Source: Cetobacterium sp. (GTDB taxonomy: Bacteria > Fusobacteriota > Fusobacteriia > Fusobacteriales > Fusobacteriaceae). Taken from it: a stretch of DNA of 64,000 bases. This document shows, piece after piece, positions 2,721 to 48,677 of this stretch. Position 1 is the first letter of the stretch. Each line of letters opens with the position of its first letter. The position numbers were made by a program, and so were the translations under genes. The notes beneath the pieces are model-generated. The model did not search any database and had not been told where the DNA came from. It worked only from the letters and a program-made list of their open reading frames with translations. The stretch is from positions 4,475-68,474 of the forward strand of contig NZ_JBOFXD010000050.1 in assembly GCF_051653945.1 (NCBI RefSeq), read 5' to 3'.

Positions 2721-3308
2721 GTGAGAAATCTATTTTTTGATAATGTACCACTTTTAGGATTGATATTAGGTTTACTTTTTGGATTAGCACTATATTATGC
2801 TGGAGCAACAAATAGAGTTGTTATATCTAAAATGTTAAAACTTCAAGATTTAACTCTTATGAAAATAATTGTCTTTGCTATAGGATTTAGTATGGCTCTT
2901 TTATATTTAAGTGTAGCTTTAAATTTAATTCCTTTGGATCACTTCAGTATTAAGCCTATGAATTTTGGAGTGATACTAGGAAGTGCGATTTTAGCTTTAG
3001 GTTTTGGAATGATTGGACTTTGTCCTGGAACTGCAGTAGCAAGTTTTGGAGCAGGATATTTAAAAAGTATATATGTGCTTTTAGGTGGTTTAGTTGGAGC
3101 GTTTTTATTTACACTTTCTTATCCCGTATTTAATAGTATCGGACTTTTTAAAAATCTTCTTGGTGGGAAAACTACTTTACTGTTTTTATCTGAAAAATAT
3201 AATTTTCTTATACACGGAACACCTTGGATAGGGGTATTTATAGGAATTGTTTTAATTGCAATATCTCTAGCCATTCCATACTCATTATCTGAGGATGAGA
3301 AAAAATAA
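2721..3308 (+). CDS. YeeE/YedE family transporter, second half
   Basis: GFGMIGLCPGT motif; multi-TM; GTG at 2721 with GGTGA SD is a more plausible start than 2712. Confidence 0.78.
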   Translation: MRNLFFDNVPLLGLILGLLFGLALYYAGATNRVVISKMLKLQDLTLMKIIVFAIGFSMALLYLSVALNLIPLDHFSIKPMNFGVILGSAILALGFGMIGLCPGTAVASFGAGYLKSIYVLLGGLVGAFLFTLSYPVFNSIGLFKNLLGGKTTLLFLSEKYNFLIHGTPWIGVFIGIVLIAISLAIPYSLSEDEKK

Positions 3309-9513: not shown

Positions 9514-10560
9514 ATGTCAAATAAAATAAATTTACTTAATTTAAACGAACAAGAGCTTACAGATTTTATAGTTTCTTTAGGAATGAAGAAATTTTACGGA
9601 AAACAAATATTTACATGGTTAAATCAAAAAATAGTTAGAGATATTAACGATATGACAAACATATCATTAAAGGATAGAGAATTACTTTCTGAGAAAGCAT
9701 ACATCCCTTTCTTAAACCTATTAAAGCACCAAGTTTCTAAAATAGATAAAACTGAAAAGTTTTTATTTAAATTAGAAGATGGAAATACAATTGAAAGTGT
9801 TATCTTAAGACACAAAGAGAGAACAACTCTTTGCATCTCATCTCAAGTTGGATGTGCTGTTAAGTGCGGATTCTGTGCTACAGGTCTTGGTGGATTTACA
9901 AGAAACTTAGATGTACATGAGATTACAAATCAGTTCTACACAATTGAAAGAAGACTATTAAAGCAAGGATTACAAATTAATAACATTGTATTCATGGGTA
10001 TGGGAGAGCCAATGCTTAATATCAATAATGTTATTAAAGCTATTGATATCTTATCAAGTGAAAAAGGTGTTAATGTTTCTAAGAGAAGAATCACAATTTC
10101 AACTTCTGGAATAATTCCTGGAATTGAAAAATTATTAGAAGAGAGAATCCCAGTAGAGTTAGCTATATCTTTACATAGTGCTATTGATGAAAAGAGAAGC
10201 GAATTAATGCCAATCAATACAAAATATCCATTACAGGATTTATTCCCAATATTACAAGAGTATCAAAGACAAACTAAAAGAAGAATCACTTTTGAGTATA
10301 TCTTAATCAATGATTTCAATGTATCTGATAATGATATCGCTTACTTAGCTGATTTCGTTCACAACTTTGATCATATATTAAATCTTATTCCATGTAATCC
10401 AGTAGATGGAAAAGATTACCAAAGACCTTCTCAAAAGAAAATTGAAAAAATCTTTAATTACTTAAAAGATTTTAGAAAAGTAAATGTAACTGTTAGAGGA
10501 GAAAAGGGAACTGATATAGACGGTGCTTGTGGACAATTAAGACAAAAAAATCTAAAATAA
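9514..10560 (+). CDS. rlmN: 23S rRNA (A2503-C2) methyltransferase, radical SAM
   Basis: [21 protein letters not shown] and DIDGACGQL motifs. Confidence 0.96.
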
Positions 10561-24996: not shown

Positions 24997-25025
24997 TTGA
25001 CATTTATATACATTTATAGTACTAT
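24997..25025 (+). promoter_or_regulatory. Consensus sigma70 promoter
   Basis: TTGACA (24997-25002), 17 bp, TACTAT (25020-25025). Confidence 0.75.
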
Positions 25026-25031
25026 ATCTAT

Positions 25032-25148
25032 GAAACCGAATTTGATTGAATAGATCTATATACCCCCCAAAAATCTATTTTAATCTTTTTTATTTTTTAA
25101 CACTCCCCCGTGTTAATAAAAACTCCTTTTCCCCAAAAGGAGTTTTTT
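25032..25148 (+). ncRNA. Candidate small RNA with three C-rich-loop hairpins
   Basis: Lies between a consensus promoter and an intrinsic terminator (AAAACTCCTTTT-CCCC-AAAAGGAGTTTT); no ORF with an RBS. Confidence 0.6.
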
Positions 25149-25236
25149 TATTCTCCAATAATTTTAAAATAAAAAAGGAAATAAAAATTTTATAAGAATA
25201 ATATTTCAGAAGTTTAGAACTATAGGAGGTTTATAT

Positions 25237-25605
25237 ATGAAAAAATTACTTTTAAGTTTAACTATTTTATTGTCACTTACAACTTTTGCCAACTCTAAAG
25301 AGGATATGATCGAAATGGGATTGATGAATAAGTTTCCTACTTTAACAGATGGTAAAACAGCTATCAATGTTTATGAATATGATGTTGATTTAGACCACCA
25401 CAAAATAGAGCTAAAAGTAGAACTAAAAGGCGATGCTTCAAAAGAGGAATATAATAAATTAGACAAAGCAAAACTAGAAACACTTGCTTCTGAAATGGCA
25501 AAATATACTCAAACTGAATCAGGAAAAACTCTTCCAGTTTATGTTGAGATTGAACTAGATAGAGATATGCTTCCAGATGAAATTTTATATAAAAATACTT
25601 TTTAA
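25237..25605 (+). CDS. Secreted/periplasmic hypothetical protein
   Basis: Signal peptide MKKLLLSLTILLSLTTFA; RBS GGAGG. Confidence 0.82.
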   Translation: MKKLLLSLTILLSLTTFANSKEDMIEMGLMNKFPTLTDGKTAINVYEYDVDLDHHKIELKVELKGDASKEEYNKLDKAKLETLASEMAKYTQTESGKTLPVYVEIELDRDMLPDEILYKNTF

Positions 25606-48511: not shown

Positions 48512-48533
48512 GTTCCAAAAGTAAATATATTCA

Positions 48534-48596
48534 TTCGTATAAGTTGCAAATATGGTGCAACGTCTCTACAACTAACCGTAAATTAGTTTCTATGAA
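48534..48596 (+). ncRNA. Purine (guanine-type) riboswitch aptamer
   Basis: UCGUAUAA-GUUGCA-AAUAUGG-UGCAAC-GUCUCUAC-AACUAA-CCGUAAA-UUAGUU-U-C-UAUGAA; C at the discriminator position; upstream of guaA. Confidence 0.93.
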
Positions 48597-48677
48597 AAAG
48601 ATAAAAGGGATTAGTCTACCTTCTGTTTTTTTATAGAGTATGATTATCTCTTTTTTTATTATATTTTGGAGGTTTTT

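What the first reader, a model, noticed from the sequence alone, without database searches (positions are those of the whole stretch)
24997..25148. Standalone sRNA candidate displaying three C-rich (anti-Shine-Dalgarno) loops
Seen: a consensus promoter (TTGACA-17-TACTAT) and, about 115 nt later, a strong terminator, with no RBS-led ORF between them. The interval folds into AUAGAU-[cuauauaCCCCCCaaaa]-AUCUAU, UUAACAC-[UCCCCC]-GUGUUAA and the terminator stem with a CCCC loop. C-runs are rare in this AT-rich DNA and all three fall in loops. Known: staphylococcal RNAIII and RsaE use C-rich loops to pair with G-rich RBSs, and this genome's RBSs are GGAGG/GGGAG. Inference: a trans-acting translational repressor.
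Basis: partly seen in the sequence, partly recalled or inferred. Interest (0 to 1): 0.7.

Follow-up and report, generated by a model that had tools for sequence, protein, structure and literature searches.

The report
Five-copy C-rich-loop small RNA family
This stretch is one of five dispersed copies of a previously undescribed ~118-nt small RNA gene of Cetobacterium and a few related Fusobacteriaceae. It shows runs of C in hairpin loops and probably silences genes by pairing with G-rich ribosome-binding sites, which is a familiar design in a phylum where few regulatory RNAs are known.

Summary
TTGACA-17-TACTAT (24997-25025) is followed by a ~118-nt unit (25032-25149). It folds into SL1 (C6 in a 17-nt loop), SL2 (UCCCCC loop) and an intrinsic terminator (CCCC loop).

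The genome holds five dispersed paralogues, each with its own -35/-10 and its own terminator. Each sits in a locus that is syntenic across Cetobacterium species.

Covariance models find the family in 19 of 22 Cetobacterium genomes (1-5 copies). Single copies occur in three other Fusobacteriaceae genera, including the F. ulcerans group. None was found in the two genera searched most widely (38 genomes) or in other families of the order.

Promoter position, both C-run loops and the SL2 sequence are conserved across genera. Stems show compensatory changes. There is no conserved ORF and no Rfam match. Two of the five copies face a convergent gene, so it is not a leader.

Best reading: a new family of sibling trans-acting sRNAs that works like LhrC or RsaE/RoxS, by anti-Shine-Dalgarno pairing without Hfq. 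A discrete transcript and the targets are not shown.

The scan holds no look-alike sequence. It has noted the same kind of RNA in other phyla.

The parts
24997..25002 (+). -35 hexamer TTGACA
   Evidence: TTGAC(A/T) is kept at the same distance from the conserved 5' end in all five paralogues and in members from four genera, while the sequence upstream of it is unrelated.
25020..25025 (+). -10 hexamer TACTAT, 17-nt spacer. It lies inside a 12-nt perfect palindrome, TATAGTACTATA (25015-25026).
   Evidence: The paralogues have TATACT or TATTAT at the same place. The distant members have TG/GG-extended TATACT, TAAACT or TAAAAT.
25032..25149 (+). Predicted sRNA transcript (~118 nt), from the inferred start (G 25032 or A 25033) to the end of the U tail.
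   Evidence: Family-wide sequence conservation starts 6-7 nt after the -10 hexamer and stops at the T run. CM R1 scores it 136 bits. The ends are inferred, not mapped.
25032..25043 (+). Conserved single-stranded 5' segment, GA(A/G)AC(C/U)
   Evidence: A2, A4 and C5 are invariant in both alignments. It is unpaired in the fold.
25044..25085 (+). Stem-loop 1: a 12-bp interrupted stem with a 17-nt loop (25056-25072) that carries the C6 run (25063-25068).
   Evidence: One pair is G-C in 21 members and A-U in 8. Two pairs switch between G-U and A-U, and 99% of cells are paired. In the four-genus alignment the core 5 bp show two pairs with changes on both sides. The C run is predicted unpaired (0.8-1.0) in all 35 members tested.
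25086..25096 (+). U-rich single-stranded linker
   Evidence: Its length varies by 1-4 nt between subtypes.
25097..25116 (+). Stem-loop 2: UUAACAC / UCCCCC / GUGUUAA
   Evidence: A 17-nt core (AACACUCCCCCGUGUUA) is unchanged in most members from four genera. The exceptions are one Cetobacterium copy with a compensatory C-G to U-A change plus a loop C to U change, three Cetobacterium copies that change the last stem base, one with an extra loop C, and one MAG copy with two substitutions.
25118..25149 (+). Rho-independent terminator: 13-bp stem, CCCC loop (25131-25134), U7 tail (25143-25149)
   Evidence: Five stem pairs show compensatory changes between subtypes. The loop is C-rich in most Cetobacterium copies and in the neighbouring genus, but not in the F. 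ulcerans-group or termite-gut members.

Best explanation
The interval is a gene for a ~118-nt non-coding RNA. It has its own sigma-70-type promoter and ends at its own intrinsic terminator.

It is one of five dispersed paralogues (siblings) in this Cetobacterium genome. It belongs to an uncatalogued family found in Cetobacterium and three further Fusobacteriaceae genera.

The RNA is G-poor. It presents two conserved runs of five or six C in the loops of two hairpins. In Cetobacterium there is a third run, in the terminator loop.

Most likely mechanism (inferred): the exposed C runs pair with G-rich ribosome-binding sites (GGGGG or GGGGAG type) of several mRNAs. This blocks 30S binding and lowers translation, and often mRNA stability. 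It would work without Hfq, which the genome lacks, as the UCCC/C-rich-loop sRNAs of low-GC Gram-positive bacteria do. The siblings have different promoter spacers, so they may feed different signals into one regulon.

Shown here: anatomy, copy number, conservation, covariation, absence of an ORF, independence from neighbouring genes.
Inferred: transcript ends, action in trans, pairing at Shine-Dalgarno sites, repression.
For: - Five copies at 81-100% identity. Homology starts at the -35 hexamer and ends at the T tail.
- Each copy lies in a locus whose +/-1.5 kb flanks align in other Cetobacterium species. In the more distant species the sRNA is 93-94% identical where the flanks are 75-78%.
- CM searches: Cetobacterium 19/22 genomes with 1-5 copies; the neighbouring genus 3/3; the F. 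ulcerans-group genus 6/21; the termite-gut genus 4/4; none in the other genera. The three weak hits in two further genera proved false on inspection.
- Structure: 97.2% of cells are paired, against 35-58% when partners are slid. 44 cells have changes on both sides, against 15 +/- 4.5 in shuffles.
- The C runs are conserved across genera and predicted unpaired in 35 of 35 members.
- No ORF is shared by the subtypes.
- Neighbouring genes are unrelated, and two of the five copies are followed by a convergent gene.
- No Hfq and no CsrA in a genome scored 100% complete.
- GGGGG precedes a start codon in 204 of 783 occurrences, and about 171 predicted initiation regions carry it.
- Predicted duplexes of loop 1 and loop 2 with initiation regions are far stronger than with internal coding windows: at -14 kcal/mol or better, 122 against 18 (loop 1) and 91 against 18 (loop 2).
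- The LhrC precedent has the same design and size (PMC4132741).
Against: - No transcript ends are shown. The metatranscriptome contigs that hold the core carry the flanks of the sibling on contig C110, and they extend 52-606 nt upstream of the predicted start.
- Two contigs from a related strain run from SL2 through the terminator into the downstream 122-aa gene. This fits DNA carry-over, read-through or assembly breaks at the repeat.
- Enrichment of pairing at initiation regions follows almost automatically from C-rich against G-rich sequence, so it names no target.
- The top candidates are heterogeneous: PTS EIIBC, an MFS transporter, a PL8 lyase, an oxidoreductase, a type I restriction subunit and proteins without a family match. 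They have no clean orthologues across genera.
- A C5-6 run mismatches the majority GGAGG site at its A.
- The near-total invariance of the whole SL2 hairpin, stem included, is more than a 6-nt seed needs. No long complement to it exists elsewhere in the genome.
Confidence: 0.6

Rival explanations
1. Protein-binding decoy or partner RNA. The repeated C-rich loops would be binding sites for an RNA-binding protein, most plausibly the KH/R3H proteins KhpA/KhpB. Several gene copies would titrate or deliver that protein, as CsrB/RsmXYZ do for CsrA.
For: - Fusobacteria lack Hfq, ProQ and CsrA, and KhpA/KhpB are their main sRNA-binding proteins (PMC11039985).
- A crystal structure of T. thermophilus KhpB holds a C-rich 10-mer (cited in bioRxiv 10.64898/2026.10.12.757534).
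- This genome has no Hfq or CsrA and has one KhpB-like Jag_N match.
- The SL2 stem and loop are almost invariant across four genera, which suits recognition of a shape.
- Multicopy genes with repeated loop motifs are typical of decoy RNAs.
Against: - Only two conserved motifs per RNA; known decoys carry many more.
- The Jag_N match is below Pfam's cut-off (24.3 against 25 bits).
- No sequence preference of fusobacterial KhpA/B is known. The F. nucleatum paper holds neither 'C-rich' nor 'CCCC', and no passage I read states an RNA sequence preference.
- Binding KhpB would not exclude base-pairing.
Confidence: 0.15
2. A base-pairing RNA, but not an SD blocker. The C runs would pair with G-rich sites elsewhere, such as coding regions, 5' UTR structures or other sRNAs (a sponge), or would activate translation by opening a structure.
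For: - About three quarters of GGGGG occurrences are not at start codons.
- Internal coding windows also give duplexes down to -20 kcal/mol.
- FoxJ of F. nucleatum shows that fusobacterial sRNAs can activate (PMC11005410).
Against: Strong predicted sites are 5-7 times more frequent at initiation regions than inside genes. All characterised C-rich-loop sRNAs act mainly at SD sites (PMC4132741).
Confidence: 0.12
3. A cis-acting leader or attenuator of the downstream 122-aa gene (25237-25605). Transcription from the promoter would either stop at the terminator or read through.
For: - The gene is co-oriented, and its start codon lies 88 nt past the U tail.
- Type A synteny with it is conserved.
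- Two RNA-library contigs of a related strain bridge SL2, the terminator and the gene.
Against: - The same RNA sits at four other loci next to unrelated genes. Two of these are followed by a convergent gene.
- No alternative antiterminator fold is predicted, and no leader peptide is conserved.
- No riboswitch or leader family matches at Rfam's thresholds.
- The bridging contigs may be DNA.
Confidence: 0.05
4. A dispersed repeat (MITE- or REP-like element) or a small protein gene, with no RNA function of its own.
For: It is multicopy and about 120-160 bp long. An unconserved TTG ORF of 49-50 codons runs through the copies of types A and B.
Against: - No terminal inverted repeats or target duplications were seen.
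- Every copy is fixed in a syntenic locus across species.
- The boundaries coincide with a promoter and a terminator.
- Stems covary.
- The ORF has no SD and is absent from type C and from the other genera.
Confidence: 0.03

Closest known systems
LhrC1-5 of Listeria monocytogenes (PMC4132741)
   Same: - Five copies of a 111-114-nt, G-poor sRNA.
- Redundant C-rich (UCCC) sites in a hairpin loop and in the terminator loop, which pair with the SD of target mRNAs and block translation.
- Hfq is dispensable.
- Here too there are five copies of ~118 nt and C runs in two hairpin loops plus the terminator loop. UCCC is present in SL2 and in the terminator loop.
   Different: - No sequence or CM similarity: no LhrC hit even at E <= 10.
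- A different phylum.
- The copies are dispersed. In C. somerae ATCC BAA-474 they lie on the chromosome and on three records titled plasmids. By my recollection, lhrC1-4 are tandem.
- The motifs are C5-6 runs rather than CUCCC...UUUU.
- The regulator is unknown (LisRK for LhrC).
RsaE/RoxS of Bacillales and the staphylococcal UCCC-motif sRNAs (RNAIII, SprD; FsrA in B. subtilis)
   Same: C-rich motifs in unpaired regions pair with G-rich SD sequences in low-GC bacteria and do not need Hfq (summarised in PMC4132741). This is the mechanism proposed here.
   Different: No Rfam match. RsaE/RoxS is usually single-copy and has a different fold. Its link to redox and central metabolism (my knowledge) has no counterpart shown here.
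6C RNA of Actinobacteria (my knowledge: two hairpins, each with a loop of six or more C)
   Same: Two hairpins, each presenting a run of C in the loop, conserved across genera.
   Different: No CM match. 6C occurs in high-GC hosts and is not multicopy.
FoxI and FoxJ, the characterised sRNAs of Fusobacterium nucleatum (PMC11039985, PMC11005410)
   Same: Same phylum. They are trans-acting repressors that work without Hfq, ProQ or CsrA.
   Different: They are sigma-E-dependent and restricted to F. nucleatum, F. periodonticum and F. hwasookii. The present family has a sigma-70-type promoter. It was not found in the two genera searched most widely (38 genomes), where the only weak hits were a coding region and an unrelated terminator.

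Membership tests
Trans-encoded base-pairing sRNA gene (generic class) | Own promoter, conserved in position | tested here: met
   TTGAC(A/T)-17-TAnnnT sits at a fixed distance from the conserved 5' end in all paralogues and in four genera. The sequence upstream of it is unrelated.
Trans-encoded base-pairing sRNA gene (generic class) | Own intrinsic terminator | tested here: met
   The stem covaries between subtypes.
Trans-encoded base-pairing sRNA gene (generic class) | No conserved ORF | tested here: met
Trans-encoded base-pairing sRNA gene (generic class) | Independent of the neighbouring gene | tested here: met
   Five loci with unrelated neighbours. Two have a convergent downstream gene.
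Trans-encoded base-pairing sRNA gene (generic class) | Discrete transcript of the predicted size | tested here: inconclusive
   RNA-library contigs hold the core of a sibling, but they give no ends and may include DNA.
Trans-encoded base-pairing sRNA gene (generic class) | Demonstrated pairing with, and regulation of, a target mRNA | not testable with these tools
   Only duplex predictions are available.
LhrC (Listeria) | Match to the family's covariance model | tested here: not met
   cmscan of all 4227 Rfam models gave nothing at gathering score. At E <= 10 it gave only terminator-driven hits to other families.
LhrC (Listeria) | Multicopy, ~110 nt, redundant C-rich sites including the terminator loop | tested here: met
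   This is a likeness of design, not of descent.
RsaE/RoxS | Match to the family's covariance model | tested here: not met
6C RNA | Match to the family's covariance model | tested here: not met
Cis-regulatory leader or riboswitch | Constant position upstream of, and co-oriented with, one gene family | tested here: not met
Protein-titrating decoy RNA (CsrB/Rsm type) | A cognate RNA-binding protein encoded in the genome | tested here: inconclusive
   CsrA and Hfq were not found. One KhpB-like Jag_N match lies just below the cut-off.
Protein-titrating decoy RNA (CsrB/Rsm type) | Many repeated binding motifs per RNA | tested here: not met
   Two conserved C-run loops, three in Cetobacterium.

The most novel reading that the evidence does not exclude
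The siblings are not primarily SD blockers. They would be a multicopy set of decoy or adaptor RNAs for the KH/R3H proteins KhpA/KhpB, recognised through the invariant SL2 hairpin and the C runs. That would be the first CsrB-like titration system for Khp proteins, in a phylum that lacks Hfq, ProQ and CsrA.
Probability: 0.1. Interest if true: 0.8.

Novelty: new member of a known kind. Interest (0 to 1): 0.5.

Why it matters
Fusobacteriota branch far from the model bacteria, lack Hfq, ProQ and CsrA, and have only a handful of characterised sRNAs, all from the F. nucleatum group.

This family would be the first sRNA described for Cetobacterium, which by my knowledge is a dominant gut symbiont of freshwater fish. 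It would also be the first for the F. ulcerans group.

It would show that the C-rich-loop, multicopy, anti-SD design of Firmicutes sRNAs also arose in this phylum. The five differently promoted copies and the near-invariant second hairpin give clear handles for experiments: deleting all copies, loop mutations and Khp pull-downs. As a kind of regulator it is familiar, so the gain is a new family and a new host lineage rather than a new principle.

Tried and rejected
- **Rfam.** The whole window at gathering score gave only a purine riboswitch elsewhere. The locus at E <= 10 and nine family members at E <= 0.1 gave only weak terminator-driven or chance hits.
- **Expression.** Two run searches and the single read-laying run showed that RNA libraries hold the core. 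The contigs belong to the C110-type sibling, extend upstream of the predicted start, and break at the repeat or hairpin. No transcript ends follow from them.
- **Homologues in two further genera.** Three weak R2 hits (E 0.02-0.03) proved to be a coding region and an unrelated terminator and were rejected. Pattern hits in Bacteroides, Verrucomicrobia, Dehalococcoidales and Phyllobacterium records did not match the model.
- **Targets.** Duplex ranking of 2642 self-called initiation regions gave a heterogeneous list. There was no preference for the bases that would extend SL2 pairing, and no long complement to SL2 or loop 1 beyond the genes' own antisense.
- **Conservation check of targets.** This failed because the top candidates lack clear orthologues, at 28-37% identity to paralogous families.
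- **Shared neighbour.** The two 122-aa ORFs next to two of the copies are unrelated.
- **Literature.** There is no paper on Cetobacterium sRNAs. The two F. nucleatum sRNA papers I searched hold none of 'C-rich', 'anti-SD', 'anti-Shine' or 'CCCC'.
- **Earlier notes of this scan.** No look-alike sequence was found.

Full report
**1. The observation**

The sequence is as described. TTGACA lies at 24997-25002, a 17-nt spacer follows, and TACTAT lies at 25020-25025. About 118 nt later there is an intrinsic terminator: a 13-bp stem, a CCCC loop and a U7 tail at 25118-25149.

Folding 25032-25150 as RNA gives three hairpins at -24.9 kcal/mol. Shuffles average -9.3 +/- 2.4 (z = -6.45).

It is a 12-bp interrupted stem (25044-25055 with 25073-25085) around a 17-nt loop that holds CCCCCC (25063-25068).
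- **SL2** is UUAACAC / UCCCCC / GUGUUAA (25097-25116).

C runs are rare in this 28.8% G+C genome. Only 0.013% of 119-nt windows carry two C5 runs plus a third C4 run on one strand. They form 13 clusters in 2.73 Mb, and five of them are copies of this element.

A promoter-like match alone means little here: 19 sites were found against 23 expected.

**2.

A search of the window's own assembly finds five copies. They lie on contigs C50 (the window), C110, C54, C108 and C29, at 81-89% identity to the window copy.

In the alignment, homology begins at the -35 hexamer and ends at the T tail. Every copy keeps TTGACA, a -10 hexamer (TACTAT, TATACT or TATTAT) and a terminator. The DNA outside these limits is unrelated.

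Three subtypes exist:
- Type A, the window copy.
- Type B, whose terminator is built on CCCUCC...GGAGGG.
- Type C, with a 3-nt deletion and an SL1 stem in which G-C has become A-U.

Each copy sits in a locus whose +/-1.5 kb flanks align in other Cetobacterium species. The copies are therefore old, fixed paralogues and not mobile repeats. For type A, the RNA is 93-94% identical in species whose flanks are only 75-78% identical.

Record titles identify the genus. They show that C. somerae ATCC BAA-474 carries copies on its chromosome and on three records titled plasmids.

**3. Family and distribution**

A 29-sequence alignment (A1) gives a consensus fold of SL1, SL2 and the terminator.

On that fold 97.2% of cells are standard pairs, against 35-58% when partners are slid by 1-3 columns. 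There are 44 cells with changes on both sides, against 15 +/- 4.5 in shuffles. Most covariation is in the terminator. SL1 has one fully compensated pair and two G-U/A-U pairs. SL2 hardly varies.

Model R1 was searched over 151 genomes of the order. Model R2, built from a four-genus alignment, was searched over 131 genomes of the family. Results:

| Genus | Genomes with the RNA | Copies |
|---|---|---|
| Cetobacterium | 19/22 | 1-5 |
| Neighbouring genus that includes 'Cetobacterium sp. SF1' | 3/3 | 1 |
| Genus that includes F. ulcerans (title) | 6/21 | 1 |
| Termite-gut genus that includes 'Fusobacterium sp. PH5-44' | 4/4 | 1 |
| The other families of the order (56 genomes) | 0 | - |

In the two genera sampled most heavily, 22 and 16 genomes, the only hits were three weak ones. 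They proved to be a coding region and an unrelated terminator.

The distant members keep the following:
- the promoter at the same distance;
- the 5' GAGAC;
- the SL1 core, with two pairs changed on both sides;
- a C5 run in the SL1 loop;
- a 17-nt core of SL2 (AACACUCCCCCGUGUUA) in every member from the other three genera fetched here. The few departures are one Cetobacterium copy with a compensatory C-G to U-A change and a loop C to U change, three Cetobacterium copies that change the last stem base, one with an extra loop C, and one F. ulcerans MAG copy with two substitutions.

Their terminators differ and do not have C-rich loops. The third C loop is therefore lineage-specific.

Both conserved C runs are predicted unpaired (0.8-1.0) in all 35 members folded.

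**4. What it is not**

- **Not a known RNA family.** No Rfam model matches the locus or other members.
- **Not protein-coding.** The only ORF of any length is a TTG ORF without an SD. It is shared by types A and B and absent from type C and the other genera.
- **Not a leader.** The neighbours are unrelated: DUF4269 and a 122-aa secreted-looking protein here; LrgB, aminopeptidase P, a glutamate symporter and a solute-binding protein elsewhere. In two of the five loci the next gene is convergent.
- **Not a look-alike of anything noted in this scan**.

**5. Expression**

Many RNA-labelled public runs hold 50-60% of the sampled words of the 125-nt unit, but only 6-15% of an 801-nt stretch around it.

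Laying four of them showed that the contigs cover 25031-25122 and then continue with the promoter and terminator of the type B sibling. They extend 52-606 nt upstream of the predicted start and stop in or just after the terminator.

Two contigs from a 93%-identical strain run from SL2 through the type A terminator into the downstream gene.

Contigs break at repeats and hairpins, and RNA libraries can hold DNA. The data show presence, not a discrete transcript. This is the main gap.

**6. Mechanism**

The genome has no Hfq and no CsrA, as reported for fusobacteria (PMC11039985).

GGGGG is used as a Shine-Dalgarno (SD) variant. 204 of 783 occurrences lie 3-13 nt before a start codon that opens an ORF of at least 60 codons. 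About 171 such sites lie in the 2642 initiation regions I called. GGAGG remains the majority.

Predicted duplexes of loop 1 and loop 2 are much stronger with initiation regions than with internal coding windows. At -14 kcal/mol or better the counts are 122 against 18 for loop 1 and 91 against 18 for loop 2.

This is what an anti-SD RNA should show. It also follows almost automatically from the base composition, and it singles out no target:
- The best candidates are functionally mixed.
- They are not conserved as orthologues.
- No extended complement to SL2 exists.

I therefore commit to SD occlusion by the C-run loops as the most likely mechanism (about 0.6). The basis is anatomy and the close precedent of LhrC: five copies, 111-114 nt, G-poor, redundant UCCC sites in a hairpin loop and the terminator loop, Hfq dispensable (PMC4132741).

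**7. Rivals**

The near-invariance of the whole SL2 hairpin is more than a short seed requires. KhpA/KhpB are the major sRNA-binding proteins of F. nucleatum. A KhpB crystal structure holds a C-rich 10-mer. This genome has one KhpB-like match just below the cut-off. A Khp-binding decoy or adaptor role is therefore the most interesting alternative (about 0.1-0.15), and it is compatible with base-pairing.

Pairing at sites other than the SD (about 0.12), a leader role for the 25237 gene (about 0.05) and a plain repeat or small ORF (about 0.03) are less likely, for the reasons given above.

**8. Verdict**

The finding gains from five siblings and conservation across four genera.

It is a new, uncatalogued family of a well-known kind of regulator, in a phylum with few known sRNAs. 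Earlier notes of this scan describe analogous C-rich-loop sibling families in other phyla. This makes the design look widespread and lowers the surprise.

Interest is moderate (0.5).

Noticed in passing
window 48515-48612 (+): A purine riboswitch aptamer (RF00167, 62.3 bits against a gathering score of 37). It is the only Rfam match in the window.
   Followed up: no
G000:C114:~9995-10085 (+), outside the window: A second, unrelated candidate sRNA with C-rich loops. It is intergenic and has a hairpin with a CCCCC loop, followed by a terminator whose loop is CCCCCC.
   Followed up: no
G000:C69:15300-15499 (+), C83:141-340 (-), C106:4287-4486 (-), outside the window: Three copies of a GC-rich repeat with four C5-6 runs within ~50 nt, placed just after a terminator-like hairpin. 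Its nature is unknown.
   Followed up: no
window 25015-25026: A perfect 12-nt palindrome, TATAGTACTATA, spans the -10 hexamer of the type A promoter. It is kept in 7 of 8 type A orthologues. It could be an operator, but its conservation is confounded with that of the -10 hexamer.
   Followed up: partly
L026:1435-1606 (-) (G014:C1:~92709-92810): One Cetobacterium species has a single copy in which SL2 and the usual terminator are replaced by a different terminator hairpin directly after the linker. This is a natural 'SL1-only' variant.
   Followed up: no
G021:C2:119472-119629 and 119826-119983; G017:C12:~3076-3150 and C25:~877-951: One species has two type C copies in tandem, about 200 nt apart. 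Another has two partial copies made of SL2 plus the terminator only.
   Followed up: no
L033, L034, L035, L043, L047 (C. somerae ATCC BAA-474): The five siblings are spread over the chromosome (types A and B) and three records titled plasmids, of 688, 199 and 145 kb (type C copies).
   Followed up: partly
G000:C48:5845-5991 (+), outside the window: A KhpB-like Jag_N match (24.3 bits, cut-off 25) in a 253-codon open frame. Hfq and CsrA were not found in this genome, which is scored 100% complete.
   Followed up: no
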